Source: a virus
Strand: one strand, 5' to 3'
DNA: 64,000 bases
Virus record (IMG/VR): IMGVR_UViG_3300035698_014711
Coordinates: 1 to 64,000 of that record
A model generated the notes under the pieces. The model made no database searches and was not told where the DNA came from. It saw only the letters and a program-made list of their open reading frames with translations. This document shows, in pieces, positions 36,175 through 47,564 of this stretch. Each line of letters starts with the position of its first letter. Position 1 is the stretch's first letter. A program made the position numbers and the translations under genes.

Positions 36175-36177
36175 ATG

Positions 36178-36420: not shown

Positions 36421-36435
36421 TTAAGTTTCCTTTTT

Positions 36436-36527
36436 TGGCAGAAGCAGGGAGAATCGAACTCCATACGCCGAGAGACGCACGATAAGATTAGCAATCCCTC
36501 CTAGGAACCATCCTAGTTCTTACTTCC
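36436..36527 (-). tRNA. tRNA-Ser(GCT)
   Basis: Long V-arm, G73, CCA. Confidence 0.88.
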
Positions 36528-36530
36528 ATT

Positions 36531-36606
36531 TGGAGTTAGTGCCCGGACTCGAACCGGGGCCTCAAGGATTTGCAATCCTGCGCATTAACCGCTTTGCTAC
36601 ACCAAC
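36531..36606 (-). tRNA. tRNA-Cys(GCA)
   Basis: Cloverleaf, U73, CCA. Confidence 0.93.
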
Positions 36607-36627
36607 ATATTTCTTAAGTATTTATAA

Positions 36628-36702
36628 TGGTGCTTCCAGCAAGAATCGAACTTGCGGCTGACCCTTACCAAAGGTCTGTTTTACCATTGAAACTATGGAA
36701 GC
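36628..36702 (-). tRNA. tRNA-Thr(GGT)
   Basis: Cloverleaf, CCA. Confidence 0.93.
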
Positions 36703-36705
36703 GTA

Positions 36706-36793
36706 TGGAGGAGAGACAGGGAATCGAACCCTGGAGACACTCGCATGCCTTACTGATTTCCAACCAGCTGCCTTACCGCTCGGCCACCTCTCC
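36706..36793 (-). tRNA. tRNA-Ser(GGA)
   Basis: Long V-arm, CCA. Confidence 0.88.
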
Positions 36794-36797
36794 GTAT

Positions 36798-36925
36798 TGG
36801 CCCTTGCTGCGGGAATCGAACCCTAGTAAATAACTGCTTCATGTAGAGCTCGAGTTAACATGAAACATCTATCTACAACTTCCATCCGCTTTCACACGGC
36901 TACTCTACCATTGAGCTAAACAAGG
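36798..36925 (-). ncRNA. 128-nt tRNA-like RNA with about 55-nt inserted hairpin
   Basis: Acceptor CCTTGTT/AGCAAGG, D-arm, GGGTTCGATTCCC T-arm, CCA; no canonical anticodon loop. Confidence 0.7.
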
Positions 36926-36935
36926 ATATTAAGTT

Positions 36936-37002
36936 AAGTTACAGGTCGAGCCGACAAAGTCATATTACTACCTTTCACGAGTGAGCTGATAGCCCGTAAC
37001 TT
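36936..37002 (-). ncRNA. small structured RNA candidate
   Basis: Closing stem AAGTTACGGG/CCTGTAACTT between tRNA genes. Confidence 0.4.
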
Positions 37003-37004
37003 AT

Positions 37005-37078
37005 TGGTGGACCGGGTGGGGATTGAACCCACGTCCTGGGATTAAGAGTCCCGTGCTATACCACTCAGCTACCGGTCC
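37005..37078 (-). tRNA. tRNA-Lys(CTT)
   Basis: Cloverleaf, CCA. Confidence 0.93.
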
Positions 37079-37084
37079 GTATTC

Positions 37085-37174
37085 TTATGCACCGTCATCA
37101 TCACGAAGATCATCTTCATCATCTGTCTGGATTGTGCCATCTTCATCATAAAACCAAAAATCATCCATCATCAT
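37085..37174 (-). CDS. 29-aa highly acidic peptide
   Basis: MMMDDFWFYDEDGTIQTDDEDDLRDDDGA. Confidence 0.4.
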   Translation of the reverse strand: MMMDDFWFYDEDGTIQTDDEDDLRDDDGA

Positions 37175-37188
37175 TCCATTCTATAAGT

Positions 37189-37280
37189 TGGTAGAAGTGC
37201 CAGGAGTTGAACCTGGTCGAGAACGGTAATCTGCCGCTGAAAGACTTATAAGATCTCCCTGTGTACCAACACCCACTTCC
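37189..37280 (-). tRNA. tRNA-Ile(TAT), atypical long V-arm
   Basis: GGAGAT-CT-TAT-AA-GTCTTT, short D-arm, V-arm GCGG..CCGT, ACCA. Confidence 0.75.
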
Positions 37281-37286
37281 GTTATT

Positions 37287-37370
37287 TGGTATAAGCGTGA
37301 AGGTATTGAACCTTGGAATACCGCTTTACTAGCTCGCAAATATTCCAGCAGACCACACTGCCATACGCCC
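37287..37370 (-). pseudogene. tRNA-like RNA with aberrant anticodon arm
   Basis: D-arm GCAG/CTGC, GGAATA..TATTCC arm, T-arm AAGG-TTCAATA-CCTT, ACCA. Confidence 0.55.
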
Positions 37371-37377
37371 TCAGTTA

Positions 37378-37647
37378 TTACATTTTATGTGATCTCTCAC
37401 ATTGTTCTGTAATTGCAGCATCAGACAAATCGAGATTAGGACGTGTCAGACCCTCATAGCAAATCAGGTCCTGTTTAAACCCAAAGTCATTTTCTGAGTT
37501 AACATACATTTGGATGAACCGTCCAGCACCATTAGGATAGCTCAATAGAAACCTTGCAGAAAGTATACCTAAGGCAATCTCCTGTGAGATAAACTTACCG
37601 GTGAAGTGTCCTCGAAGACAGTTCCCTAGGGTATATGACTTTTCCAT
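37378..37647 (-). CDS. hypothetical protein
   Basis: ORF in operon. Confidence 0.55.
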   Translation of the reverse strand: MEKSYTLGNCLRGHFTGKFISQEIALGILSARFLLSYPNGAGRFIQMYVNSENDFGFKQDLICYEGLTRPNLDLSDAAITEQCERSHKM

Positions 37648-37648
37648 A

Positions 37649-37855
37649 TCAAGTAGTCTCTACTGTCTCCATGACAGCCTGCAAAAGTTTGTCATAATCA
37701 CCTGACATTGCTTTAGTCTCAAACTCTGCAATATCATCTGCAGAACAACCACCGCGGCGCATTGCTTTCGCGGTGCGTCCGATGACAGAGAAAGCATTAC
37801 CGTCTTCGCCTACAAGACACACGATAACATTTGGAAATTTAACAGTCATGATCAT
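37649..37855 (-). CDS. conserved small phage protein
   Basis: LVGEDGNAF..IG....AM......SGDYD.LL motif; start below promoter. Confidence 0.75.
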   Translation of the reverse strand: MIMTVKFPNVIVCLVGEDGNAFSVIGRTAKAMRRGGCSADDIAEFETKAMSGDYDKLLQAVMETVETT

Positions 37856-37880
37856 ATCCTCATTGTGTTTTGTTAAGACT

Positions 37881-37910
37881 AAACTAACATACAACAGGGC
37901 CAATGTAAAC
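37881..37910 (-). promoter_or_regulatory. early promoter
   Basis: GTTTACA...TATGTTAGTTT. Confidence 0.6.
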
Positions 37911-37912
37911 CA

Positions 37913-38572
37913 TTATTTTGATTTTTCTTTACGGAAGCTTTTCACATAGTCAAAGCCTGCTTTTTGGATCTTATCTTTATCAGCCAGAGGTTTGATGTCA
38001 GGATTATTTGCAATGATACCCGAGACATATTGAAAGATCTCTTGGTGACAGGAGAATGCATCTAGGATAGAAGGAAGCCCTAAGGAGACAAGCCCATCGC
38101 AGTTGATAGTATGGATCCATTTACCTTTCTCACGTTTAGCAAAAGAGACTGAGGTCACAATCCTATTGTCAATCAAAAACTTCTGGTAGGTTTCTCTATT
38201 AATTCCAAGAAATTCATCGATAGCAGGAATGATTTGCTTTCTCTTGTAGCGTGAGAGAATCTTTGTTAGCTTCTTATCACGAGTATAATGAAAGCCATGG
38301 TGTGTTTCAACAAAGGGATAGCACTTAGTAGCTACTGTCACATACCCAAACCGGATATGAAAGGTATGACTACCGCACCAGAGACCTTGGTCTTTTTTGT
38401 CAAAGGTGTATGAAAGATTGGGGACATAACCGGGCCTACCAAAGCCGACACTCGGTAGAGCAAATGGGAGCTTAGCATTATCTACTTCAGTATTTGTTCT
38501 TTTAAACACATAAGCTTTATCAATACCATAGCCACATCCATCATAGTAATCGTGGCCTCGAATAATAAGCAT
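37913..38572 (-). CDS. conserved hypothetical phage protein
   Basis: DYYD N-terminus; KIQKAGFD..SFRK C-terminus. Confidence 0.75.
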   Translation of the reverse strand: MLIIRGHDYYDGCGYGIDKAYVFKRTNTEVDNAKLPFALPSVGFGRPGYVPNLSYTFDKKDQGLWCGSHTFHIRFGYVTVATKCYPFVETHHGFHYTRDKKLTKILSRYKRKQIIPAIDEFLGINRETYQKFLIDNRIVTSVSFAKREKGKWIHTINCDGLVSLGLPSILDAFSCHQEIFQYVSGIIANNPDIKPLADKDKIQKAGFDYVKSFRKEKSK

Positions 38573-38584
38573 ATCACTTCTCCA

Positions 38585-38770
38585 TTATAAAGAGCATATA
38601 CTGGCAAACATCTCATATTCTTCTATTATCAATTCTATAGTTTTGTGTGTATCTCTTGATTGTCTGTAAGCTCTATGTAAATGGACCCATTCAACAGGAA
38701 AATTAGATTCATAGAGTGCCCAATTCAAAAGATCATTGGGAAGATTTTCTCTTATAAGCAATTCATCCAT
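38585..38770 (-). CDS. hypothetical protein
   Basis: Short ORF. Confidence 0.5.
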   Translation of the reverse strand: MDELLIRENLPNDLLNWALYESNFPVEWVHLHRAYRQSRDTHKTIELIIEEYEMFASICSL

Positions 38771-38784
38771 AATACACCTGTAAT

Positions 38785-38856
38785 TGGAGCGGACAGAGGG
38801 AATCTAACCCTCTCCTTAAGTTTGGAAAACTATTTGGCTAACATAGCCCTGCCCGC
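38785..38856 (-). tRNA. tRNA-Gly(TCC), reduced D-loop
   Basis: GCGGGCA/TGTCCGC, U73, D-arm GGCTA-TGT-TAGCC, T-loop TTAGATT. Confidence 0.8.
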
Positions 38857-38859
38857 ATA

Positions 38860-38912
38860 ACCGTGGAGTGTTGAGTTTTTATGCAATAAAATTAAGGAAC
38901 ACTCTTTACGGT
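38860..38912 (-). ncRNA. GTTCCTTA hairpin motif, copy 4
   Basis: ACCGT-AAA-GAGTGTTCCTTA..AACACTC-C-ACGGT. Confidence 0.7.
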
Positions 38913-38930
38913 AGAATAGTATTTATAAGA

Positions 38931-39158
38931 TTAACATCGCATTTTTGGATCAGAATGAAAAGGACTCATTCCAGTTTTACCTGCATGAGCTTCATTAAGC
39001 TTTTCTTGTTGATCAGCTGGATAGCTTGGATCAATTTCATGAAGAAAAACCATATTCAAGTGTCTCTTGATTAGATCCACTTGCTGAGAGTTAATATTAA
39101 CAGGCTCGGCTACTTCAAAGAAGCCCTGTAGCCAATAGCAAAATTCTGTAGATTTCAT
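38931..39158 (-). CDS. conserved small phage protein (FCYWLQGFFE)
   Basis: True start ATG 39158 with AAGGA RBS. Confidence 0.75.
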   Translation of the reverse strand: MKSTEFCYWLQGFFEVAEPVNINSQQVDLIKRHLNMVFLHEIDPSYPADQQEKLNEAHAGKTGMSPFHSDPKMRC

Positions 39159-39174
39159 GTCAGTATCCTTAAAT

Positions 39175-39363
39175 GGCGAGTTGTAATTTGGTGGCACGCA
39201 AGGGCCTTGCTTGATGTAAGGAACAACTTGTGCCGATGTGAATATGCCGGAGTGTAAGGTTTCTAAAATGAATGAATAAGGAACACTCTTTGGCAATATG
39301 TTAATGATGAGCTGTTAAAAATCGGAGGTTGGTCCGACCACGAGTAAGGAACAGCTTTTATCA
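39175..39363 (-). repeat. three tandem GTTCCTTA hairpin motifs (39305-39363, 39245-39295, 39175-39234)
   Basis: Invariant taaggaac (plus strand) with covarying stems and unrelated loops. Confidence 0.8.
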
Positions 39364-39369
39364 AATTTC

Positions 39370-41115
39370 TTAAAGAGACAACAAAGCCTCCAATTTATCA
39401 TAGCTGAATGATGAATAAGTCAGATCGTAATCATACTCAACACCAGGTACAGCTACTTTATCATAGCCTACGCCAATCAGGCCAAGAACTTCTTGAAGAG
39501 TAAAGACAGAGTTAAGACCTTTTTCAATCAGAGGGTTCTTTCCGTTTGATGAAACATGCCTATTTCCCGTCCGTCCTGTAAACACAGTAAAGGTTGTGCC
39601 CTTGACAAAGCCAAGGATAACTTCCTTAGACTGCATAGTGAATTCTTCCTGAATGATTGGGTTCTGAATCCACTCCCCTTTGGTCTTTTGACCTACAATC
39701 AATGAAGCCTTACAGCCAATTTCACCAGAGTAAATATTAACATTAAGACCATATTCAGAACCAGAAGAGGAGGTCATGAATTCCATAGCATCAGGGGTAG
39801 GTGTAACAACATCACCAGAATAGATAATCTGTCCGTCAGTATATCCACCAGTGCCGCCCCAGCCTATACGATTTCCATCTTTATCAATAGAAGATAAGTC
39901 AAGATCTCGAGCTCCACCGTCTTTATGCCAATAGATACCAGAAGAGATAGATTCTGCAGCAACGTGGATCTTTGTGCCAAAAGGTAGATTACCCAGAGTC
40001 TGCTTCTGAGAGATTGGAAGACCATAGTCAACATTAGTATCCAGAAGGATTTTCTTATCTTTCAGGTATTCTAGATCAACTTTAATAGAAGAAATAATAG
40101 TATTCTGAAGCTGACCTAATACTTTCAGATCATAGACTTTAACATCTGCAGTCTTTACAAAGAGCTTGCCATTCCGAATATTGAAAACATCTACATCTAG
40201 CTGCTTGCATTTATACTCAACCAGGTTAAGAAATTTGAACTTATCTCGCAGAGAAGCTTTAGATAATAGATCAAGGGGATCTGTAATCTTACCTGCAATA
40301 GCATCAGCAATGAAGGTCTTTGTCCATGACTGCTTGAGCGGAATATGAACTGTTTTGCTCAACCTAGAGATATAGTTAATCTGAGTTTTATTGCTCTTAT
40401 GCTTGACAGACATAATTACTGCTTTGTGTCGGTTAAAGACTTGAGCAAGAGCAAGAGCGTTACGGCTATAAAAGCTTGAAGGAATAAGAGCGGCTGACAT
40501 TTTGCAAGCCTGGAGAACTTCTTTTGATTTAATCAGAAGAGTATCACCTGTTGCTCGATAGATAATATAGCGGACTGCATCATCACCACAATCAAAAGTG
40601 TCATTGTTAGCATCAAAGAGCAATACTCTAAGCTCGTTATTCTCAACAAGATTGACATTGAACTGAATGAGATACCTATCAATGATAGCTTTCAGACCAA
40701 GGACATCCTTGACCGGAGCATTGCTATACATGAGCTTCCGAACTTTATCACCAAGTTCTTCTTCAGTAATGCCGATAACAAACTTTAGAGTAAAAGTAGG
40801 CTCTTGAGTCTCATTTATGATAGTAAAAGAACCACCAAGACCGTCAAGACCCATGCCATAAACTTCGAGATAATGGATGAACTGTGTGGTCAGAAGGTAA
40901 GGAAGTGAAGCCTTTTGTCGTTCTTCCACTGTAAAAAGAGTACGAACTGGGAGCCCACGATCATTATGCTTGAAAAACAATTGTTGCTCAGGAGATGGGT
41001 TAAAGTTTAAAACATAACCATGCGCAATCATAGTAGTAACAAATGCATCTCTTGAAACCTGATCAGCATCAATTACAGTAGCATTAAATAGGTCTAGAAC
41101 TTCTTTCATAATCAT
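39370..41115 (-). CDS. 581-aa protein, helical N-terminus plus TerD-like C-terminal domain
   Basis: GIYW..RDLDLS..IGW..YSGDV..AMEF..VNIYSG resembles TerD-like domains. Confidence 0.6.
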   Translation of the reverse strand: MIMKEVLDLFNATVIDADQVSRDAFVTTMIAHGYVLNFNPSPEQQLFFKHNDRGLPVRTLFTVEERQKASLPYLLTTQFIHYLEVYGMGLDGLGGSFTIINETQEPTFTLKFVIGITEEELGDKVRKLMYSNAPVKDVLGLKAIIDRYLIQFNVNLVENNELRVLLFDANNDTFDCGDDAVRYIIYRATGDTLLIKSKEVLQACKMSAALIPSSFYSRNALALAQVFNRHKAVIMSVKHKSNKTQINYISRLSKTVHIPLKQSWTKTFIADAIAGKITDPLDLLSKASLRDKFKFLNLVEYKCKQLDVDVFNIRNGKLFVKTADVKVYDLKVLGQLQNTIISSIKVDLEYLKDKKILLDTNVDYGLPISQKQTLGNLPFGTKIHVAAESISSGIYWHKDGGARDLDLSSIDKDGNRIGWGGTGGYTDGQIIYSGDVVTPTPDAMEFMTSSSGSEYGLNVNIYSGEIGCKASLIVGQKTKGEWIQNPIIQEEFTMQSKEVILGFVKGTTFTVFTGRTGNRHVSSNGKNPLIEKGLNSVFTLQEVLGLIGVGYDKVAVPGVEYDYDLTYSSFSYDKLEALLSL

Positions 41116-41128
41116 TCCTCTTTCAAAT

Positions 41129-41202
41129 TGGATGTGCGAGCTGGGATCGAACCAGCATTAACGGGGTCAAAGGCCGCTTTCCTGCCATTAGAAGATCGCA
41201 CA
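41129..41202 (-). tRNA. tRNA-Gln(TTG)
   Basis: Cloverleaf, CCA. Confidence 0.9.
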
Positions 41203-41206
41203 ATAA

Positions 41207-41341
41207 TCAATACTTAGTTTTCAGATCAATCTTATCCAGACGTCTCTGAGCTTTCTTTGTTTTTCCGTGAGCTCCACTCTTCCGAAAATGGGCATGGGCT
41301 GCAAACGGATTTCTGTTCTTTGGGCTTGGGCTCTTTTTCAT
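41207..41341 (-). CDS. small basic protein (RNPF..RKSGAHGK.KKA.RR)
   Basis: 44-aa ORF with GAGG RBS below an early promoter. Confidence 0.65.
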   Translation of the reverse strand: MKKSPSPKNRNPFAAHAHFRKSGAHGKTKKAQRRLDKIDLKTKY

Positions 41342-41362
41342 AATCATTTCCTCTGAATATTA

Positions 41363-41392
41363 ACTATAACATAAAGAGGGCATGATGTAAAC
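41363..41392 (-). promoter_or_regulatory. early promoter
   Basis: GTTTACA...TATGTTATAGT. Confidence 0.8.
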
Positions 41393-41587
41393 CTATCTTT
41401 TTGTTTCTCGTGCCTTACATGCTTCATAAATAATCTGATTTCTGTCAGCGTCAGGCAATTTGCTACTTGTTACAAAACAAGAGACTCCCATGAAACCTTT
41501 GATAGTAATTGGAGTTATCTCACGCATCAAGTTATCGAGACTTGTACGGAGTAAGAGCTTCTCAACATCAAATGATTTAGCTGTCAT
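41393..41587 (-). CDS. hypothetical protein
   Basis: Short ORF. Confidence 0.55.
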   Translation of the reverse strand: MTAKSFDVEKLLLRTSLDNLMREITPITIKGFMGVSCFVTSSKLPDADRNQIIYEACKARETKR

Positions 41588-41606
41588 GTTCTATCCATTG
41601 TTAAAT

Positions 41607-41683
41607 TGGTACCCAAGGTGAGAATTGAACTCACAATATTCAATCTTGTAAGAATCGATGGTCCACCAGGACGCGGCTCGGGC
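41607..41683 (-). tRNA. tRNA-Val(TAC)
   Basis: CGATT-CT-TAC-AA-GATTG, ACCA. Confidence 0.8.
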
Positions 41684-41692
41684 ATATAGTAT

Positions 41693-41776
41693 TGGTGCTG
41701 GCCATAGGATTCGAACCTATGACGTTGTTATAACGGATTACAAAACCGTTCCTTTCGGCCTCTCAGGCAGACCAGC
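41693..41776 (-). tRNA. tRNA-Thr(TGT), extended variable region
   Basis: Loop TT-TGT-AA, about 12-nt V region, ACCA. Confidence 0.8.
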
Positions 41777-41780
41777 ATTA

Positions 41781-42059
41781 TTATTCAGGCAGTACCACGC
41801 AGGACAAACCTACAGGACCGGCGTCACCAAAGGCCATCACACAGAAAACATTGTCTGCAGTGGCAGCAGGGAATTCATAGACACGAACATCCCTGCCAAG
41901 TGCCTCAACTCGATAGCCTGTGCTTTCCTGTGTAGGAAGATCACCAACATCAGTTGAGAACCAACCCGCTCCTGCGGCACCAGACATTGAACTAACAGTT
42001 ATTAGAACAACACCAGCGGCAATAGCTAACAAACCTGATGGCTTAACAAAATTCAACAT
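41781..42059 (-). CDS. hypothetical membrane/secreted protein
   Basis: Hydrophobic N-terminus, GGAG RBS. Confidence 0.7.
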   Translation of the reverse strand: MLNFVKPSGLLAIAAGVVLITVSSMSGAAGAGWFSTDVGDLPTQESTGYRVEALGRDVRVYEFPAATADNVFCVMAFGDAGPVGLSCVVLPE

Positions 42060-42084
42060 AGATTCACTCCGTTTAATTTAGATA

Positions 42085-42171
42085 TGGAGGACAGGGTGGG
42101 ATTCGAACCCACGATGGATGTTACTCAACGAATTAAAAGCCCGCTCCTTCGGCCGCTCAGGTCACCTGTCC
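42085..42171 (-). tRNA. tRNA-Lys(TTT), long variable region
   Basis: GCGGG-CT-TTT-AA-TTCGT, 15-nt V region, U73, CCA. Confidence 0.8.
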
Positions 42172-42614
42172 ATATGATGTTGGCAATGTTCCGCAGAACT
42201 TCTTAGCTACTCTCCGCTCGTAGCACCATTAGTCTAGTTAATTTCTTTTTCTTTTTCTTGTAGCATTGCTTTTAAAATAGCAATCAGGAAAGCCTGGCCT
42301 GCACTTTCAGATTTACCTTCGGCATAAGTAGTGCCGGGTCCGCCGGAGAAAGCATTGGTGAGCAGATCTAGGTTTGCTCACCTTATAGTTTAGAAAGTAT
42401 ATTTTACTTCAAGACCTGCCTGTGTGTTGTCTGAAGCTGTATCAAAGGACCGTCGGAGGTAGGAATGACTGTCACTTTATTTATGACCGCCACATCAAGT
42501 CCGAGTTCAACATACCCGCCTGCTCTTGCAAACTGATTGCTTGCATTGAAGCTATAACCTGCTTCAGAGAAGGCAGTTACTTCACCAGAGAAGGCATAAG
42601 CATGGTTAGGCAAT

Positions 42615-42686
42615 TGGTAGTGTCACCGGGTATCGAACCCAGCCTATTCAGATATGAACCAAACGTCTGAACCTATCAGTGACACC
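42615..42686 (-). tRNA. tRNA-CAT (Met or Ile2), short D-arm
   Basis: Loop TT-CAT-AT, ACCA. Confidence 0.7.
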
Positions 42687-42695
42687 ATATTAACT

Positions 42696-42766
42696 TGGAA
42701 CCCCCGGGGAGAATCGAACTCCCCGTCATCGGCTTCGAAAGCCTAGGCCGTCCCAGCGGCGGAGGT
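42696..42766 (-). tRNA. tRNA-Arg(TCG), atypical
   Basis: GGC-TT-TCG-AA-GCC, CCA. Confidence 0.65.
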
Positions 42767-42772
42767 ATAAAT

Positions 42773-42854
42773 TGGCACAGATCTGAGGAATCGAACCCCT
42801 TGTCAGATGGTTTGGAAGCATCCGTCTACCCAGTAGACATTAGACTAGACCTAT
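42773..42854 (-). tRNA. tRNA-Trp(CCA), atypical 8/4 fold
   Basis: Acceptor ATAGGTCT/AGATCTGT, 4-bp T-stem, loop TT-CCA-AA, GCCA. Confidence 0.6.
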
Positions 42855-42948
42855 ATTGTCTATAATATTTGTAGTTTTGTAGATGGTATAGAACATGGTT
42901 TGTACTCATAGTTTTATTGTCACTACTATTTATACAAACCATGCTCTC
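42840..42948 (-). pseudogene. GIY-YIG (seg-like) homing endonuclease relic with regulatory hairpin
   Basis: MFYTIYKTTNIIDNIGLV* (42896-42840); 15-bp stem covering start; TATAAATA at 42927. Confidence 0.75.
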
Positions 42949-42952
42949 TAAG

Positions 42953-43024
42953 TGGACCGCCGGGGAATCGAACCCCGTGACAGCAATCTTGCAAGGATCG
43001 CCCGCTACCCCATAGACGCAGCCC
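42953..43024 (-). tRNA. tRNA-Ala(TGC), no encoded CCA
   Basis: G3:U70, CT-TGC-AA. Confidence 0.85.
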
Positions 43025-43032
43025 ATATTCTT

Positions 43033-43109
43033 TGGTACCCAAGGAGGGACTCGAACCCTCAAGACCTTCCGTTTGGGGAAGTATGCTATTCCTCTTACGT
43101 TGCCTGGGC
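43033..43109 (-). tRNA. atypical tRNA, possibly Leu(CAA), 6-nt anticodon loop
   Basis: CTTCC-CCAAAC-GGAAG; paralog of 44460-44537. Confidence 0.5.
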
Positions 43110-43254
43110 ATATTATTGCTACCTACTCCATAGCTTTCCGATACTCTCTCCTTACGAGTATGACCTCGGAACACGGTGCTCGCGCAGACCTAAGAAGTTA
43201 CCTTCTTCTCATATTTAAAGACCCTCAGGCTGAAACAGGGTCGTAGAAAACTTC

Positions 43255-43329
43255 TGGTGTTGTGCCGGGGAATCGAACCACCGTTGGACCGACCTATACG
43301 GCCGCGCATTAACATTATGCTAGCACAAC
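43255..43329 (-). pseudogene. degenerate tRNA (collapsed anticodon loop GTATA)
   Basis: Perfect acceptor GTTGTGC/GCACAAC, D-arm, GTTCGATT, ACCA. Confidence 0.6.
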
Positions 43330-43333
43330 ATAT

Positions 43334-43423
43334 TGGCGGATGGAGAGGGAGTCGAACCCTCACGGCGCTTAAAGCCCTAACTGCTTTCAAAACAGCGGCC
43401 ACCCCCAATTGGCTTGCCCATCC
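43334..43423 (-). tRNA. tRNA-Ser(TGA)
   Basis: Long V-arm, G73, CCA. Confidence 0.9.
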
Positions 43424-43434
43424 GTATCTTATAA

Positions 43435-43836
43435 TCAATCGAAGTATGTTGGATCATCATGAGGATTACGCTTTTTTGGAGCTCTAGTTGTCTTCTTCTT
43501 TTTCCTCAGTTCATCTGATATTTCATAGTCTATACCAATACCATCATATTCGTCTTCTTCAGCAAAGTTATATGAAATTGCAATGACACCTCTAATACTA
43601 GGAGTCTCAAAAGATTCGTAATCGCCGTTTTTCTTATATGTCCACTTGGAATCACTTTTAAGAGTGGCAATTAATTTCTTAAGCTTCTTACGGTCGGCTT
43701 CATATACATCCGTGAAATTCTTGTCTGCTTTTTCAGTTGTCCCGCCAGTTATTTTCACGGCCATTTTAATAACAGTAGCTAAATCTTCTGTATTAGCTTC
43801 ATTAAGAGAATGCATCAATTCTTTAAAGGTTTTCAT
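43435..43836 (-). CDS. hypothetical late protein (MKTFKE type)
   Basis: TATAAATA at 43863 and AGGA RBS upstream. Confidence 0.7.
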   Translation of the reverse strand: MKTFKELMHSLNEANTEDLATVIKMAVKITGGTTEKADKNFTDVYEADRKKLKKLIATLKSDSKWTYKKNGDYESFETPSIRGVIAISYNFAEEDEYDGIGIDYEISDELRKKKKTTRAPKKRNPHDDPTYFD

Positions 43837-43890
43837 ACGATATCCTATTCTATGATTTAAAGTATTTATACATTCATACATTCAAAGAAT

Positions 43891-43971
43891 TGGTACTAGG
43901 TGGTAGGTGGTAGAATTGAACTACGCATCAACATCCTTCACAGGGATGAGACCTCACCAGAGGAACCTAGC
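43891..43971 (-). tRNA. tRNA-His(GTG), A73, with 7-nt duplication near the 3' end
   Basis: CATCC-CT-GTG-AA-GGATG; CTACCAC repeated before CTAGTACCA. Confidence 0.7.
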
Positions 43972-44123
43972 ATGATAAACTTGTGGGTCTTATACATTCG
44001 GTTAACCCTTCAGCTGATTGAGTTTCAACACCAGCGAGTAAAGCGCGTTGCGAACATCACGCGGCATGGTAGAAATTGGACCGATACAATGTCCTAAGCG
44101 TCTTTCGATAATCTGTCGGGCAG

Positions 44124-44381
44124 TCATTCGCAGGCCCCCATAAGCATTTCATCTGATGGGCCATTAATGTAATTTTGTGTTTCCAGTAAATCACCGGCAG
44201 TACCAAAGTAAAGCATTAATGAATTGTCATGGTATTCATCAAATGCTGGGCCACCTACGAGGTTAGGGCCACTTTCAGCATTACCATTGTCATGATAATC
44301 TTCATTATAGGCAGTGTGCGTGAAGCCTGCTTCAATCAAGAAAGCGTGGGACGTGCTAAACGGTGTTCTATTATCAGACAT
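44124..44381 (-). CDS. hypothetical early protein
   Basis: Below early promoter, AAGGA RBS. Confidence 0.65.
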   Translation of the reverse strand: MSDNRTPFSTSHAFLIEAGFTHTAYNEDYHDNGNAESGPNLVGGPAFDEYHDNSLMLYFGTAGDLLETQNYINGPSDEMLMGACE

Positions 44382-44412
44382 TTGGTTAATCCTTTGGTTT
44401 GGTTATAAGTTA

Positions 44413-44442
44413 ACCATAACATAACCAGAGACATATGTAAAC
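44413..44442 (-). promoter_or_regulatory. early promoter
   Basis: GTTTACA...TATGTTATGGT. Confidence 0.7.
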
Positions 44443-44459
44443 AACTAAATGATATATTT

Positions 44460-44537
44460 TGGTACCCAAGGAGGGACTCGAACCCTCAGACCTCACCTTC
44501 TAAGGGTGATATGCTATTCCACTTACATCGCAGGGGC
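44460..44537 (-). tRNA. tRNA-Leu(TAG), short variable arm, mismatched acceptor
   Basis: TCACC-CT-TAG-AA-GGTGA, ACCA. Confidence 0.7.
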
Positions 44538-44547
44538 ATGATAAACT

Positions 44548-44623
44548 TGGTACCTGAGGAGGGAATTGAACTCTCTCATAAACACTAATCAGGTGCTCGT
44601 CTTTCCATTAGACAGTCTCAGGC
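44548..44623 (-). tRNA. tRNA-Ile(GAT)
   Basis: AGCAC-CT-GAT-TA-GTGTT, ACCA. Confidence 0.85.
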
Positions 44624-44627
44624 ATAT

Positions 44628-44702
44628 TGGTAGCGGGGTCAGGAATTTAACCTGAAGGAAGACGTGGTAATGAGCCAGTCTTGAGAAACATCTCTCCCCG
44701 CA
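44628..44702 (-). tRNA. initiator-like tRNA-Met(CAT), degenerate
   Basis: GCGGGG/CCCCGC with 1:72 mismatch, CT-CAT-TA, ACCA. Confidence 0.6.
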
Positions 44703-44730
44703 CAAACTTTATAAGGTTCTTCCAGGGTGC

Positions 44731-44844
44731 CAGCCCTATGTAAATCATACCATTGATTATATTAGTAGTTTTGTAAATTGTGTAGTGCAAGAGAAGTACC
44801 TATAGTTTTACCATATAGTACTATCTATACTTCTCTTGCACTCT
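44731..44844 (-). pseudogene. second GIY-YIG homing endonuclease relic with regulatory hairpin
   Basis: TTG 44790: HYTIYKTTNIINGMIYIGL; perfect 15-bp IR 44784-44798/44828-44842. Confidence 0.8.
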
Positions 44845-44846
44845 AT

Positions 44847-44919
44847 TAAAGCATACGGGATTCGAACCCGTGTTCACCGGGTGAAAACCGGCGCGTCCTT
44901 TCCAATAGACGAATGCTTC
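44847..44919 (-). tRNA. tRNA-Glu(TTC), no encoded CCA
   Basis: GCCGG-TT-TTC-AC-CCGGT. Confidence 0.88.
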
Positions 44920-44934
44920 ATAATGATGAAATTT

Positions 44935-44964
44935 ATTATAACATAATCTAATGCCTATGTAAAC
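44935..44964 (-). promoter_or_regulatory. early promoter
   Basis: GTTTACA...TATGTTATAAT. Confidence 0.8.
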
Positions 44965-44972
44965 AAAAGATT

Positions 44973-45067
44973 TGGTAGGCGCGGTGGGCATCGAACCCAC
45001 GGTGTGATCATTAATCTGTAGCAGATTTTAAGTCTGCCGCGTTTCAGCCAAACTTCGCCACGCGCCC
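44973..45067 (-). tRNA. tRNA-Leu(TAA)
   Basis: Long V-arm, ACCA. Confidence 0.92.
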
Positions 45068-45075
45068 GTTGTAAT

Positions 45076-45149
45076 TGGTGCTCCCGGAAGGAATCGAACC
45101 TTCGTGCGTCGGCTTAGAAGACCTTGCTTGGTAAACCACCAGCGGGAGC
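45076..45149 (-). tRNA. tRNA-Arg(TCT)
   Basis: CT-TCT-AA, ACCA. Confidence 0.8.
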
Positions 45150-45156
45150 AATTAGT

Positions 45157-45232
45157 TGGTGCTGCCCCACAGAATTGAACTGTGGTTTTCGGCTCTTCAG
45201 ACCGACGTGAGCACCAGCCTCACCAGAGCAGC
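45157..45232 (-). tRNA. tRNA-Phe(GAA)
   Basis: Cloverleaf, ACCA. Confidence 0.9.
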
Positions 45233-45238
45233 ATATTT

Positions 45239-45314
45239 TGGTCACTGTGGTAGGTCTCGAACCTACGATCTCCTAGTTCCAAACCAGGCGACTTACCTAC
45301 TAGCCTACACAGAG
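45239..45314 (-). tRNA. tRNA-Pro(TGG)
   Basis: Cloverleaf, ACCA. Confidence 0.9.
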
Positions 45315-45321
45315 ATAATCT

Positions 45322-45406
45322 TGGTGGGAGAGTGAGAAGTTGAATCTCTCGCTTTTACACTCAGGGTTTACAGTCCGTCTGTGGATACCCTCCACTGAAC
45401 CCTCCC
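45322..45406 (-). tRNA. tRNA-Tyr(GTA)
   Basis: CT-GTA-AA, V-arm, ACCA. Confidence 0.78.
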
Positions 45407-45420
45407 AGGTTCTTAGTTAT

Positions 45421-45494
45421 TGGCGGCCCTGTGGGTAATCGAAACCCAATCTTCTCGCAGACAACGAGTAATAATACCTTTATACGACAGGGCC
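45421..45494 (-). tRNA. tRNA-Asp(GTC)
   Basis: Cloverleaf, GCCA. Confidence 0.88.
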
Positions 45495-45546
45495 AAATGT
45501 CAGCCGGGAAATTCTTTATTGCCGCCGGATCGGTCAAATTGCAATT

Positions 45547-45617
45547 TGGAGCGGGTAGAGGGAATCGAACCCTCTCCTTGAGTGTGGCACACTTGTTGGC
45601 TCCATAGCCTTACCCGC
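45547..45617 (-). tRNA. tRNA-Gly(GCC), reduced D-loop
   Basis: GCGGGTA/TACCCGC, U73; paralog of 38785-38856. Confidence 0.78.
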
Positions 45618-45632
45618 ATTTAAACTACATTG

Positions 45633-45718
45633 CTCTCCACCTTGGAATCGAACCAAGCATCGGATCTCTCACGTCAACTGATTAACAGTCAGCTCGCCCA
45701 CCTTGAGCGCTGTAGAGA
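45633..45718 (-). tRNA. tRNA-Asn(GTT), long variable region, no CCA, inside an extended stem
   Basis: GCTGA-CT-GTT-AA-TCAGT; flanks pair 45621-45731. Confidence 0.8.
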
Positions 45719-45734
45719 GCAATATAGTTTATTG

Positions 45735-45893
45735 TATTACCATTAGTCTTCCACGGGCATTACAGCCGGTGTTCCTGTCCTCTCAACGGATATCCTCACG
45801 GGCCGAAGTAGAGTTAGAAGGGTCACTCCCGAGGTGGTTAGTCCTCATTATGACGAGCTGATGTGGAACTTATTGTTCCGACCCTGTGTTTCC
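45735..45893 (-). ncRNA. structured RNA candidate at the 5' end of the tRNA transcript
   Basis: GGGTC/GACCC enclosing GGAAC/GTTCC and CTCGT/ATGAG hairpins; GC-rich, no ORF. Confidence 0.45.
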
Positions 45894-45901
45894 TTAATTA
45901 T

Positions 45902-45931
45902 TGTATAACATAACCTTTTGTCACTGTAAAC
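45902..45931 (-). promoter_or_regulatory. early promoter for the tRNA array
   Basis: GTTTACA...TATGTTATACA. Confidence 0.7.
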
Positions 45932-45940
45932 CACTAAATG

Positions 45941-45973
45941 CAAAAACCTCAGTCTTTTTAGAAGACTGAGGTT
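45941..45973 (-). terminator. intrinsic terminator (putative attenuator)
   Basis: AACCTCAGTCTT-CTAAA-AAGACTGAGGTT-TTTG. Confidence 0.85.
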
Positions 45974-46000
45974 GCAAAATTACTTTATGTAAATTTGATC

Positions 46001-46087
46001 TCAGCAGCAGTATACCTCAATATCTCTCCCAAAGGAGAGGCGTGTCGGTAAGCCTGAATAATTTGATTTTTGCCAATGGGCTGTCAT
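46001..46087 (-). CDS. 28-aa leader peptide containing all 20 amino acids
   Basis: MTAHWQKSNYSGLPTRLSFGRDIEVYCC*, AGGA RBS, upstream of terminator and tRNA array. Confidence 0.8.
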   Translation of the reverse strand: MTAHWQKSNYSGLPTRLSFGRDIEVYCC

Positions 46088-46110
46088 AATAGTTCCTGTT
46101 GGGAGGAATA

Positions 46111-46157
46111 ATTCCCTGCCCTTTTATATACTTATTTATACAACTAGAGCAGGGAAT
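46111..46157 (-). promoter_or_regulatory. late promoter TATAAATA (46133-46140) inside an inverted repeat
   Basis: attccctgc...tatttata...gcagggaat. Confidence 0.7.
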
Positions 46158-46184: not shown

Positions 46185-47564
46185 TTAAATTGCTGCATTT
46201 TTCCGAACTGTTGAGAAGGAAGTATCACGTAGAAGCTTTCCATCAAGAAAGACATCCTCAAGAAGATTTACTTCCCCAGCCTTGAGATCACTTTCACGGA
46301 ATGTTTCCTTACCATTGTAGGCGAGACGGCCTCTCTTGGAAGTTTTACCTCCGTGGATAGGATCTTTCCAAGTATCAATCCAAGCTTCGCCTTTATGAAT
46401 TGCAGAAGCTTTCATTGCATAGCCAAGAGTGTCTCGGCTTACATTCTGGAGAAGTCCTCCACCCATTCCGAAGGCAATATTCTCAGTTGAGATTCCTTGA
46501 ATTTCAAGATTATCAAGGATTTTTGGAAGTGATGTAGAATCAATGCCGTCACCTTGAATGACTCGAATATAAGGAGGAAGTACTTTATAGCCTTTTGAAT
46601 TGGTAGTATATCCGAACTCTTCCATTAGAATTTTAATGACTTCAATCGGAACAACGGTTGGAGAGCCTGAGTCTGGACGGATAACAAGAGTGCCGCCTGA
46701 GTTGATAATCATATCTTTAAACTCTCGGCCTACAATGTTCCTTGCCATATTGTAGATATCATAGGAATCAGACACCATGGCCAGGAGTTTTCCCTCACCA
46801 GAGAAAAGTGTCATCATATTTTTAAGAGCTTCTGCTTCGCCTTCACGGCCCCATGAAGTCACGGTGGAGTGTTCTGAGGCGGGAATAGAGAATCCTGCCA
46901 TATCTTCACCATAGTAGTGACGAGCTCCAAGAAGACCGGCAACTGTGTCGGTTCCCATAAAGTTCACAAGGTGAGCGGTTCCACCAAGCATTGCTTGTTC
47001 AAGACAAGTAGCACCACGAGCACCAAAGTCATGCAATTTGAAAGCAATCTGATCAGCAACTGGCACATCAGACGTAATTTCAAGTGCATTGGCGATGTGT
47101 AGCTTCATGTTTCTCGATACTGTTGCAACTGTTGACGGATACCACACAGCTCGAAGCAAGGCAGTTTCAATAAAGCTTGGCAACCAAGAGCAATTTTCAT
47201 CAGTATTGATAATCTGGACTTGCACATTTGAAGATTCCATAACAGTTCCTTCTGGAACAGCCTGGATTCTCAGGGGTAAATAGCCACTGTGTTCTAGCAA
47301 AATGTATTCCCAATCTTCCCGATAGAAAGGGAGACCGTGAGCTAGGATAATCATTTCCGCTTCATTGATATCAGCTTGGGTGAAAGGTTCTAGAAGATAT
47401 TCTTTAATGAACATCTGCAATCCAAAGAACACAGTCACCTTATCAGCCTTGCGAGCTTCAATATATGAGTTTACAAACTTGATGTCTGGAGCCCATTGCC
47501 GGGGTTGGCTATACTTATAGCTATCAGAATTGAGAATTAGATTGGCGATTAGATTATTTCTCAT
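46185..47564 (-). CDS. nadV: nicotinamide phosphoribosyltransferase (Nampt)
   Basis: DSYKYSQ, LHDFGARG, SIPASEHS, VSDSYD, IRPDSG, QGDG, FGMGGGLLQ. Confidence 0.95.
   Translation of the reverse strand: MRNNLIANLILNSDSYKYSQPRQWAPDIKFVNSYIEARKADKVTVFFGLQMFIKEYLLEPFTQADINEAEMIILAHGLPFYREDWEYILLEHSGYLPLRIQAVPEGTVMESSNVQVQIINTDENCSWLPSFIETALLRAVWYPSTVATVSRNMKLHIANALEITSDVPVADQIAFKLHDFGARGATCLEQAMLGGTAHLVNFMGTDTVAGLLGARHYYGEDMAGFSIPASEHSTVTSWGREGEAEALKNMMTLFSGEGKLLAMVSDSYDIYNMARNIVGREFKDMIINSGGTLVIRPDSGSPTVVPIEVIKILMEEFGYTTNSKGYKVLPPYIRVIQGDGIDSTSLPKILDNLEIQGISTENIAFGMGGGLLQNVSRDTLGYAMKASAIHKGEAWIDTWKDPIHGGKTSKRGRLAYNGKETFRESDLKAGEVNLLEDVFLDGKLLRDTSFSTVRKNAAI

What the first reader, a model, noticed from the sequence alone, without database searches (positions are those of the whole stretch)
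45902..46157. Pan-amino-acid leader peptide and attenuator upstream of a complete phage tRNA set
Seen: on the minus strand, directly upstream of the tRNA array, lie a late promoter (TATAAATA, 46133-46140), an AGGA RBS and a 28-codon ORF (46087-46001) MTAHWQKSNYSGLPTRLSFGRDIEVYCC. It contains all 20 amino acids, using 25 different codons including AGA and TTA. It has an internal hairpin (CTCTCC-TTTG-GGAGAG). A 12-bp terminator stem (AACCTCAGTCTT/AAGACTGAGGTT plus U-tract) starts about 27 nt after the stop. The last codons (ATTGAGGT) can pair with the terminator 5' arm (ACCTCAGT), giving an antiterminator that a ribosome reaching the end of the ORF would mask. The phage tRNAs downstream cover all 20 amino acids. 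Known: trp/his-type attenuators use runs of one amino acid. Inference: this is a generalised attenuator. Stalling at any depleted or cleaved tRNA (host anticodon nucleases, starvation) would give read-through and extra phage tRNAs. Caveats: an early promoter (45902-45931) lies below the terminator, so only late or upstream transcription would be gated, and stalls at the last few codons would not free the antiterminator. I do not know of this being described.
Basis: partly seen in the sequence, partly recalled or inferred. Interest (0 to 1): 0.95.

Follow-up and report, generated by a model that had tools for sequence, protein, structure and literature searches.

The report
All-amino-acid leader gating phage tRNAs
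A 28-codon mini-gene that uses every one of the 20 amino acids sits with a transcription stop signal in front of this phage's tRNA genes, and the same design in other phages suggests a sensor that lets more tRNA be made when ribosomes stall.

Summary
The ORF at 46087-46001 (minus strand) has 28 codons and all 20 amino acids (P about 5e-5 to 1e-4 per ORF). A 12-bp terminator starts 27 nt after its stop. A second promoter follows, then the tRNA array. No close relative of this phage could be fetched. I did find the same layout in an unrelated set of uncultured T4-like phages: promoter, mini-ORF, terminator, second promoter, tRNA array. There, 58 of 66 modules (38 of 43 unique) encode a 33-43-residue peptide with all 20 amino acids. 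Peptide identity between lineages falls to 28-47%. The last codons pair with the terminator's 5' arm, giving a strong antiterminator that changes in step with the terminator. So completeness is selected, and a ribosome-dependent attenuator is the best reading. In this window the switch is weaker. The antiterminator is predicted to form only when a ribosome sits at about codons 10-18, and it never beats the terminator at equilibrium. tRNAs for only 19 amino acids were detected (no Tyr). No experiment exists and I found no paper describing this. Notes from this scan report the same kind of element on other DNA, so this window is a further, divergent member. Confidence 0.6.

The parts
46185..47564 (-). 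nadV (nicotinamide phosphoribosyltransferase), the gene upstream whose transcripts could also run into the leader
   Evidence: 459-aa ORF. Phage records annotate the tblastn matches as nicotinamide phosphoribosyltransferase. PF04095 and PF18127 are on record for its homologues.
46110..46157 (-). 12-bp hairpin directly after nadV, with the TATAAATA motif in its apical part
   Evidence: MFE and centroid folds of 45935-46190
46133..46140 (-). T4-type late-promoter motif TATAAATA (candidate P1)
   Evidence: 16 matches in the window against 4.7 expected, 14 of them on the minus (coding) strand. Function is inferred.
46094..46097 (-). AGGA Shine-Dalgarno-like motif, 6 nt before the ATG
   Evidence: Sequence. 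It is predicted to be mostly paired with an upstream UUCCU in both long and short transcripts.
46001..46087 (-). 28-codon leader ORF with all 20 amino acids (stop TGA at 46003-46001)
46024..46039 (-). Internal hairpin CUCUCC-UUUG-GGAGAG. It is extended by UACC/GGUA and ties up part of the antiterminator strand (protector, like trp 1:2).
   Evidence: Folds
46007..46027 (-). Antiterminator 5' strand in codons 21-27. The core AUUGAGGU lies at 46021-46014.
   Evidence: Duplex -9.0 kcal/mol for the core, -11.7, and -13.3 for the three-part helix ending 2 nt before the stop
45940..45973 (-). Intrinsic terminator: 12-bp stem, 5-nt loop, U run. It is the only strong minus-strand terminator in 35.5-46.3 kb.
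   Evidence: The hairpin alone folds at -16.7 kcal/mol.
45902..45930 (-). Second promoter (P2): TTTACA, 17 nt, TGtTATACA. The scan tool reads GTGACA-16-AATAAT.
   Evidence: The phage family shows the same TGnTATACAAT type of -10 at the same place.
45719..45897 (-). 179-nt stretch between P2 and the first tRNA, nature unknown
   Evidence: No significant fold (z = -0.14). No Rfam match at the gathering score.
36101..45718 (-). tRNA array. The first genes are tRNA-Asn 45632-45718, tRNA-Gly 45547-45617 and tRNA-Asp 45421-45494.

Best explanation
The element is a leader-peptide transcription attenuator at the head of the phage's tRNA array. Its leader is built to contain as many different amino acids as possible rather than a run of one. 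Transcripts come from upstream, either from the TATAAATA late promoter or by read-through from nadV, and they carry the 28-codon ORF.

If a ribosome translates smoothly to the end, it covers codons 21-27, which are complementary to the 5' arm of the terminator. The 12-bp terminator then forms and the transcript ends before the tRNA genes. If the ribosome stalls earlier for want of a charged tRNA, that strand stays free. It pairs with the terminator's 5' arm, and RNA polymerase runs on into the tRNA genes. This adds to the constitutive transcription from the second promoter below the terminator.

Shown here: the sequence features, their rarity, and the recurrence and selection of the design in other T4-like phages. 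Inferred: translation of the ORF, the direction of the switch, and its physiological trigger (tRNA loss to host nucleases, starvation or any slowing of decoding).
For: 1. All 20 residues in 28 codons has P of 5e-5 to 1e-4. None of 18,155 comparable ORFs in 3.05 Mb of viral loci has this property.

2. An independent recurrence. A sample of viral loci taken with a tRNA-Gly word contained 57 array heads. The two largest arrays (28 and 23 tRNAs) had the two most amino-acid-diverse upstream ORFs among 119 ORFs of 20-40 codons. Both show promoter, near-leaderless ORF, terminator, second promoter, first tRNA.

3. A pattern scan gave 69 stretches, of which 66 had at least 260 nt upstream. Of these, 58 of 66 (38 of 43 unique modules, 28 of 33 distinct peptides) have all 20 residues in 33-43 codons; 4 unique modules have 19 and 1 has 18.

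4. These peptides plus L198 form six clusters at 60% identity. Five of the six contain all-20 members. Identity between clusters is 28-47%. Simulated neutral drift keeps all 20 in only 1-3% of cases after 14-22 substitutions.

5. The property is specific to the reading frame. The mean is 19.8 distinct residues in the ORF frame against 16.2 and 16.4 in the other two frames, which always carry stops.

6. In the family, the last codons pair with the flank and 5' arm of the terminator at -13 to -23 kcal/mol, against -14 to -19 for the terminator. The pairing strand ends 0-10 nt before the stop in all but one. Shuffle tests give p = 0.001 (L261), 0.014 (L215), 0.033 (L198), 0.007 (L265) and 0.08 (window). 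The strand differs where the terminator differs: GGGUUUUGUGU/ACACAAGACCC, GGGGAUUUUG/CAAAAUCCCC, GGGUCC/GGACCC, and in the window UGAGGU/ACCUCA.

7. On the alignment, 93.2% of antiterminator cells are paired, against 28-62% when the partner is slid. The terminator is 98.4% paired, with compensatory changes at 5 of 9 pairs.

8. Masking a ribosome footprint gives a sharp switch in L261 and L215. The antiterminator forms for all upstream A-site positions and the terminator forms once the ribosome reaches the last codons.

9. The window has the same order and spacing of parts. The stop-to-terminator distance is 27 nt. In the family, the spacer from the stop to the flank that pairs with the strand is 20-22 nt. 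P2 lies directly after the terminator with the same TGnTATACA(A)T type of -10. The leader's terminator is the only strong terminator on the coding strand of the whole tRNA region.

10. Both the window phage and the family are T4-like: baseplate wedge proteins in the window, gp45 and gp44 in the family. The family arrays I checked encode tRNAs for all 20 amino acids (L215 with 28 tRNAs, L258 with 27).
Against: 1. There is no relative of the window's phage, so conservation of this particular ORF is untested.

2. The window's antiterminator is weak. At equilibrium the terminator has probability of about 1 for every ribosome position. Before the 3' arm is made, the antiterminator reaches 0.2-0.96 only with the A site at about codons 10-18. 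It is about 0 with no ribosome or with early stalls. By this model only about 7 amino acids are sensed.

3. D, I, E, V and C occur only in codons 21-28, which a ribosome would mask. In the family too, the strict sensing zone holds 16.9 distinct residues on average, not 20.

4. The arm complementarity in the window is only p = 0.03-0.08.

5. The AGGA is predicted to be mostly paired.

6. P1 differs in kind. The window has a late-promoter motif with a 46-nt leader and a Shine-Dalgarno motif. The family has a sigma-70 promoter with a leaderless ATG or a GTG start.

7. The tRNA genes have their own promoter below the terminator, so the gate controls only part of their transcription.

8. The leader's codons are not better matched to the phage tRNA set than the phage's own genes: 22 of 27 against 0.815, 33 of 38 against 0.882, 29 of 33 against 0.870.

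9. Not all large arrays in the sample have such an ORF. L182 (18 tRNAs) and L171 (15 tRNAs) do not.

10. There is no evidence of transcription or translation.
Confidence: 0.6

Rival explanations
1. The module depends on translation, but its output is not read-through into the tRNA genes. The short terminated leader RNA or its translation might act in another way, for example as a trans-acting RNA, as a gauge of completed translation coupled to mRNA decay or tmRNA, or as a control on P2 by promoter occlusion.
For: The all-20 composition is selected, yet on average only 16.9 of the 20 residues lie where a stall could free the antiterminator. P2 lies directly below the terminator in every module. 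In the window the terminator is predicted to win at every ribosome position. tmRNA genes lie next to related arrays.
Against: The conserved antiterminator that changes with the terminator, and the sharp predicted switch in the family, are what a read-through gate needs. No other function predicts them.
Confidence: 0.2
2. It is a small late gene. The TATAAATA promoter, the AGGA, the 28-codon ORF and its own terminator make a self-contained unit whose product, a 28-residue peptide, has a function of its own.
For: Promoter motif, ribosome-binding motif, ORF and terminator form a complete unit of about 190 nt. T4-like phages carry many very small genes (general knowledge).
Against: A functional peptide has no reason to hold all 20 residues. 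In the family the peptide drifts to 28-47% identity while completeness is kept. The best-conserved residues (GFC) are those encoded by the RNA pairing strand. tblastn found no homologue of the window peptide in 50,697 phage records; the best E-value was 8.
Confidence: 0.1
3. It is chance. An unselected ORF happens to lie between the ordinary terminator of the nadV operon and the promoter of the tRNA array.
For: Terminators at operon ends and promoters before tRNA genes are ordinary. The antiterminator complementarity is only p = 0.03-0.08. The scan read about 250,000 windows (figure from the search tool's description), so rare ORFs are expected somewhere. No relative shows conservation.
Against: P per ORF is about 1e-4 and 0.003-0.006 are expected per window. 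The ORF lies at the one place where an independent phage group carries a selected all-20 ORF in the same order of parts.
Confidence: 0.07

Closest known systems
Leader-peptide transcription attenuators of amino-acid operons (trpL, hisL, leuL, pheL, thrL, ilv leaders) of enterobacteria
   Same: A short translated ORF, an intrinsic terminator shortly after it, and an alternative pairing between the ORF's 3' part and the terminator's 5' arm. The position of the ribosome decides which structure forms. The window also has a protector hairpin like the trp 1:2 pairing.
   Different: There are no runs of one or a few regulatory codons. Each of the 20 amino acids occurs one to three times. The genes downstream are tRNA genes of a phage rather than biosynthetic genes, and they have a second promoter below the terminator. 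My knowledge of these classical leaders is recalled. One paper on pheL was seen only in a search listing (PMC3082878).
All-amino-acid leader modules at the head of tRNA arrays in uncultured T4-like phages
   Same: The order is promoter, mini-ORF with all 20 residues, a pairing strand in the last codons ending 0-10 nt before the stop, a terminator, P2 with a TGnTATACAAT-type -10, then the tRNA array.
   Different: No sequence similarity to the window's ORF was detected. The window's ORF is shorter (28 codons against 33-43). It has a late-promoter motif and a Shine-Dalgarno leader in place of a sigma-70 promoter with a leaderless ATG or a GTG start. Its antiterminator is much weaker (-9 to -13 against -13 to -23 kcal/mol).
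Leader-ORF attenuators induced by antibiotics that stall ribosomes (mef/mel(msrD), vmlR, the tylosin-induced yxjB)
   Same: They sense slowed translation in general, through a stalled ribosome on a short leader ORF that opens an antiterminator.
   Different: They respond to drug-bound ribosomes at particular peptide motifs, not to the supply of each tRNA, and they control resistance genes. I saw these papers only in search listings and abstract starts (PMC4335068, PMC9226507, PMC6851288).
The inducible long tRNA array (trn operon) of Anabaena sp. PCC 7120
   Same: An extra tRNA array that is switched on when translation is impaired, with rtcB co-regulated. The window also carries rtcB (32680-34173).
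   Different: Control there is by direct repeats over the -10 box and the repressor TrcR. The words attenuat-, leader and terminator do not occur in the main text of either paper (PMC8421152 and PMC10272220, passages found by term).
T-box riboswitches
   Same: Transcription attenuation that reports the state of a tRNA.
   Different: A T-box binds one uncharged tRNA directly and has no ORF. No T-box match was listed for the window region at E up to 10. The description of T-boxes is recalled.

Membership tests
Leader-peptide (ribosome-mediated) transcription attenuators | A short ORF with a start signal, upstream of and on the same strand as the regulated genes | tested here: met
   28-codon ORF with AGGA 6 nt before the ATG, on the strand of the tRNA genes. 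Translation itself is not shown, and the AGGA is predicted to be mostly paired.
Leader-peptide (ribosome-mediated) transcription attenuators | An intrinsic terminator shortly after the ORF | tested here: met
   12-bp stem, 5-nt loop and T run, starting 27 nt after the stop
Leader-peptide (ribosome-mediated) transcription attenuators | An antiterminator that excludes the terminator and whose 5' strand a ribosome at the end of the ORF would cover | tested here: inconclusive
   The pairing exists: 8-bp core at -9.0, extended helix at -13.3, ending 2 nt before the stop. It is only p = 0.03-0.08 against shuffles. It is predicted to form only with a ribosome at codons 10-18 and to lose to the terminator at equilibrium.
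Leader-peptide (ribosome-mediated) transcription attenuators | Regulatory codons: a run or excess of the amino acid(s) made by the operon | tested here: not met
   No runs. There are 20 different residues, each used one to three times. This is the point of difference.
Leader-peptide (ribosome-mediated) transcription attenuators | Read-through rises when the cognate charged tRNA is short | not testable with these tools
   This needs reporter assays, Term-seq or in-vitro coupled transcription-translation.
   Window: 20 of 20 in 28 codons. Family: 38 of 43 unique modules.
   Window: the strand ends 2 nt (extended helix) or 10 nt (core) before the stop. Family: 0-10 nt in all but one. The window's pairing is much weaker.
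   for the window; for the family
   The window has TATAAATA 46 nt before the ATG and an AGGA. No sigma-70 match of 9 of 12 or better lies upstream of the ORF on the minus strand.
   blastn of the window's tRNA region and leader against all loci then held gave only tRNA matches. tblastn of the peptide gave nothing credible.
   Window: 19 of 20 at the laxest threshold, Tyr not found. L215 and L258: 20 of 20.

The most novel reading that the evidence does not exclude
T4-like phages have evolved, perhaps more than once, a general gauge of decoding capacity. It is a minimal ORF that samples every amino acid and is wired to an attenuator. Any shortage of a usable tRNA would then raise transcription of the phage's own full tRNA set, and in this phage of the tRNA-repair genes further downstream. 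Cleavage of a tRNA by a host anticodon nuclease is one such shortage. That would be a self-regulating counter-defence circuit. The window's 28-codon version would be the shortest known and would be driven from a late promoter.
Probability: 0.35. Interest if true: 0.9.

Novelty: new variant of a known kind. Interest (0 to 1): 0.8.

Why it matters
Why phages carry tRNA arrays, and how they control them, has long been debated; codon compensation and escape from tRNA-cleaving defences are the main ideas. An attenuator whose leader samples all amino acids would be a built-in sensor of decoding capacity. It would give the arrays a demand-driven control. It would extend the classical attenuation principle from one amino acid to the whole set, and from biosynthetic genes to tRNA genes. 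It also yields a directly testable part of under 250 nt. The window adds a divergent lineage (identical contigs occur in runs labelled salt lake metagenome) with a different upstream promoter type. This suggests that the design is either old in T4-like phages or has been reinvented.

Tried and rejected
Relatives of the window phage:
- blastn of 45850-46250 against phage records gave no match.
- NadV, RtcB, the 581-aa protein and gp6 against viral contigs gave best identities of 56%, 61%, none and 48%.
- The record with 61% RtcB shares nothing else with the window. Another record (G002) shares five further genes at 41-59% identity, but its nadV is not next to tRNAs.
- NadV against metagenome contigs gave a best of 60% over a partial match.
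- A NadV homologue at 87% identity exists (P0002).
- Five fragments with the nearest gp6 (40-44% identity) have no tRNAs.
- Phage C48C1, the nearest cultured gp6 at 39.7%, shows only three scattered tRNAs in its first 50 kb.

Peptide searches:
- tblastn of the window peptide and of one family peptide against phage records gave only chance-level hits, with E of 3 or more.
- A back-translated pattern of the first 10 codons found nothing in viral contigs.
- The search for homologous proteins does not take 28 residues.

Sequencing runs:
- No RNA holder was listed.
- The laid contigs of four runs were identical to the window over the leader (X2, one 664-nt contig with 0 differences). Other parts were not covered. 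This gave no variation to analyse.

RNA families: no Rfam match at the gathering score for the window region or for a family module.

Ideas rejected or left open:
- A T4-style switch in which the hairpin around TATAAATA frees the ribosome site only in late transcripts. The AGGA is predicted to be paired in both kinds of transcript.
- Codon matching of the leaders to the phage tRNA set. There is no excess over the phage's genes.
- A structured RNA between P2 and the first tRNA. The fold gives z = -0.14.
- Other all-20 ORFs of 41-50 codons near arrays (L162, L209, L241, and the 49-codon ORF in L268/L297/L312). These are at lengths where chance gives about 1-5%. One overlaps tRNA genes and one is followed by what looks like coding sequence. 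I did not count any of them.

Literature. Six searches of the full-text library found no paper on an all-amino-acid leader or on attenuation of phage tRNA arrays. Subscription journals and supplements were not searched.
Full report
WHAT IS THERE. On the minus strand, nadV (46185-47564) ends and a 12-bp hairpin follows (46157-46110). Its apical part holds TATAAATA (46140-46133). Then come an AGGA, 6 nt of spacer, and an ATG ORF of 28 codons (46087-46001) reading MTAHWQKSNYSGLPTRLSFGRDIEVYCC. The peptide holds all 20 amino acids and uses 25 different codons. Twenty-seven nt after the stop comes a terminator with a 12-bp stem, a 5-nt loop and a T run. Directly below it is a sigma-70-like promoter, which I read as TTTACA-17-TGtTATACA and the scan tool reads as GTGACA-16-AATAAT. 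Next come 179 nt without a significant fold, and then the tRNA genes.

TATAAATA occurs 16 times in the window against 4.7 expected, and 14 of these are on the coding strand, so it probably is this phage's late-promoter motif. The window encodes T4-type baseplate wedge proteins, RtcB and an RNA ligase. Its nearest cultured relatives are Kyanoviridae-like and pelagiphage-like T4 relatives at 30-40% identity.

IS THE ORF MORE THAN CHANCE? An exact calculation gives 5.4e-5 to 9.6e-5 for all 20 residues in 28 codons. That predicts 0.003-0.006 such ORFs among the window's 322 ORFs of 20-28 codons. The ORF is the only one of 492 ORFs of 20-35 codons in the window. None of 18,155 ORFs of 20-32 codons in 3.05 Mb of other viral loci has the property. 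One such ORF somewhere in a very large scan would not be surprising by itself. What decides the matter is what stands at the same place in other phages.

NO CLOSE RELATIVE. Every route to relatives of this phage failed or gave only distant ones. Contigs from four sequencing runs were identical to the window over the leader or did not cover it. Conservation of this particular ORF is therefore untested.

THE SAME DESIGN ELSEWHERE. A scan with a generic tRNA-Gly word brought in viral loci with tRNA arrays. I listed short ORFs upstream of 57 array heads. The two most amino-acid-diverse ORFs, out of 119, lay before the two largest arrays: 20 of 20 residues in 39 codons before 28 tRNAs (L215), and 19 of 20 in 36 codons before 23 tRNAs (L156). 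Both loci read: sigma-70 promoter, ATG 3-6 nt after the -10 box (so a leaderless or nearly leaderless mRNA), mini-ORF, a strong terminator, a second promoter, first tRNA.

A pattern taken from their terminator tail and P2 region found 69 stretches, of which 66 have at least 260 nt upstream. Allowing ATG or GTG starts, 58 of 66 encode a 33-43-residue peptide with all 20 amino acids. That is 38 of 43 unique modules and 28 of 33 distinct peptides; four unique modules have 19 residues and one has 18. A GC-richer locus, L198, has the same layout with a 43-codon all-20 ORF next to a tmRNA gene.

The peptides, including L198, fall into six clusters at 60% identity, and five of the six contain all-20 members. 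Identity between clusters is 28-47%. Random substitution from an all-20 start keeps completeness in about 3% of cases after 14 changes and about 1% after 22. One variant that lost its only Gln (..TLHPEY..) sits beside variants that carry Gln at either of two positions (..TLQPEY....TLHQEY..). The ORF frame is open in all 34 distinct DNA versions. It averages 19.8 distinct residues against 16.2-16.4 in the other two frames, which always contain stops. Completeness, or near-maximal diversity, is therefore under selection, while the peptide sequence is not much constrained. These phages are also T4-like (gp45, gp44, dNMP kinase). The two arrays I checked encode tRNAs for all 20 amino acids.

THE RNA SWITCH IN THE FAMILY. 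The last codons of the ORF are complementary to the 5' arm of the terminator and the 10 or so nt before it. Duplex energies are -13 to -23 kcal/mol, against -14 to -19 for the terminator. The strand ends 0-10 nt before the stop in all but one module. The strand changes where the terminator changes: GGGUUUUGUGU with ACACAAGACCC in most, GGGGAUUUUG with CAAAAUCCCC in the L215 group, and GGGUCC with GGACCC in L198. This also explains why 'GFC' is the best-kept part of the peptide.

Against dinucleotide shuffles of the ORF, the pairing is significant in L261 (p = 0.001), L265 (0.007), L215 (0.014) and L198 (0.033). On an alignment of 35 modules, 93.2% of antiterminator cells pair, against 28-62% when the partner is slid. 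Few changes are on both sides (2 of 11 pairs), and the four L215-type rows are not in register for this helix. The terminator pairs in 98.4% of cells, with compensatory changes at 5 of 9 pairs. When a ribosome footprint is masked, L261 and L215 behave as a clean switch. The antiterminator is predicted for all A-site positions up to about codon 23-32. The terminator is predicted once the ribosome reaches the last codons.

THE SWITCH IN THE WINDOW. The topology is the same. Codons 21-27 can pair with the whole 5' arm and its flank: the core AUUGAGGU/ACCUCAGU gives -9.0 kcal/mol, and a three-part helix gives -13.3 and ends 2 nt before the stop. But the pairing is weak. As good a complement appears in 3-8% of shuffles. 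At equilibrium the terminator has probability of about 1 for every ribosome position. Before the 3' arm is transcribed, the antiterminator is predicted only with the A site at about codons 10-18. Otherwise the strand is held by the internal hairpin, which acts like the trp 1:2 pairing. The classical trp attenuator also has a terminator more stable than its antiterminator (recalled, not checked here), so this does not exclude function. It does mean that only about seven amino acids are sensed on this model.

Five residues (D, I, E, V, C) occur only in the masked part. In the family too, the strict sensing zone holds 16.9 distinct residues on average and the part upstream of the strand holds 18.8. 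The plain attenuation model therefore does not fully explain why all 20 are kept. This is the main open point, and it is the basis of my first rival explanation.

OTHER CHECKS. The AGGA is predicted to be mostly paired in both long and short transcripts. Leader codons are no better matched to the phage tRNA set than the phage's own genes. The leader's terminator is the only strong coding-strand terminator in the 10.8-kb tRNA region, which also contains further promoters of the TTTACA-17-TATAAT type. Many of the tRNAs score poorly or have long inserts. Not every large array in my sample has such an ORF.

WEIGHING. An all-20 ORF is kept in 38 of 43 unique modules of an independent T4-like group at exactly this place. 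By chance it would be expected here at about 1e-4. I therefore take it as nearly certain (about 0.9) that the window's ORF is the same kind of element and not chance. I put at about 0.65-0.7 the claim that this kind of element works as a stall-sensing attenuator that raises tRNA transcription. That rests on the conserved antiterminator that changes with the terminator. Together these give 0.6 for the window.

WHAT IS KNOWN. Leader-peptide attenuation is textbook, but with runs of the regulated amino acid and before biosynthetic genes. Drug-sensing leader ORFs sense stalled ribosomes in general. The Anabaena tRNA array is induced by translational stress, but through a repressor at the promoter; neither paper mentions an attenuator or a leader in its main text. 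Six full-text searches found nothing on an all-amino-acid leader or on attenuation of phage tRNA arrays. Rfam has no family for either module.

This scan's own notes report the same kind of element on other DNA. One freshwater-phage note gives 59 of 65 relatives keeping the full set, which is close to my 58 of 66 and may be the same family. Another note describes a 45-codon version with about 140 relatives. Several describe giant phages whose leaders divide the 20 amino acids among tRNA blocks. I read those notes only after finding the family myself. They are not independent evidence, and apart from the first I did not test them.

VERDICT. The element is a divergent new member of an undescribed variant of leader-peptide attenuation.

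Noticed in passing
window 36101-45718 (minus strand): Many tRNA genes of the array score poorly or are unusually long. Only 19 pass ARAGORN's default, 26 pass at -ps95 and a few more at -ps80. Examples are an 87-nt tRNA-Asn, a 92-nt tRNA-Ile(TAT), and a 128-nt tRNA-shaped RNA at 36798-36925 whose 7-nt loop reads as a GAA anticodon beside a long inserted hairpin. No tRNA-Tyr was found.
   Followed up: partly
window 45719-45897 (minus strand): 179 nt lie between the second promoter and the first tRNA. They have no credible ORF, no Rfam match and no significant fold (z = -0.14). What the transcript starts with is unknown.
   Followed up: partly
window 46110-46157 (minus strand): A 12-bp hairpin directly after nadV encloses the TATAAATA motif. 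A late transcript would therefore start inside the hairpin and lack its 5' arm. A test of whether this frees the ribosome-binding site was negative.
   Followed up: yes
window 36619-36626, 38920-38927, 42927-42934, 43863-43870 (minus strand): Four further TATAAATA motifs lie inside the tRNA region. Sigma-70-like TTTACA-17-TATAAT-type promoters lie at 44963-44935, 44441-44413 and 41391-41363. The array is therefore probably transcribed from many internal starts, both early and late.
   Followed up: no
window 46185-48619 (minus strand): nadV and a 341-aa ORF that looks like NadM-Nudix (my own reading of its sequence; no family search was run on it) lie side by side just upstream of the leader. 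Together they would form a two-step NAD salvage pair.
   Followed up: no
window 32680-34173 and 52166-53209 (minus strand): An RtcB-type tRNA-splicing ligase and an RNA ligase are encoded on the same strand, one downstream of the tRNA array and one upstream. This fits a phage equipped to repair cut tRNAs.
   Followed up: no
L140 12158-12569, L010 5160-5563, L198 5093-5467: tmRNA genes lie inside or next to the tRNA arrays of distantly related phage records. In L198 the tmRNA gene lies immediately upstream of the all-20 leader module.
   Followed up: no
L215 about 2617-2640; L156 and L197 likewise: The motif TTCTTTAAAAATTT that follows P2 occurs a second time about 0.9 kb into each array. This suggests a second promoter unit of the same design inside the array.
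   Followed up: no
L268 4766-4915, L297, L312 (49-codon ORF): A second ORF with all 20 residues (49 codons) lies about 1.2 kb into the arrays of three near-identical family members. What follows it looks like coding sequence, not a terminator. At this length chance is a few per cent.
   Followed up: partly
window 46535-46646 (nadV), runs X2 and X8: A contig of 2,391 nt at high depth matches this part of nadV with 18 differences in 112 nt. A related nadV is therefore far more abundant than the window's phage in one of the runs labelled salt lake metagenome.
   Followed up: no
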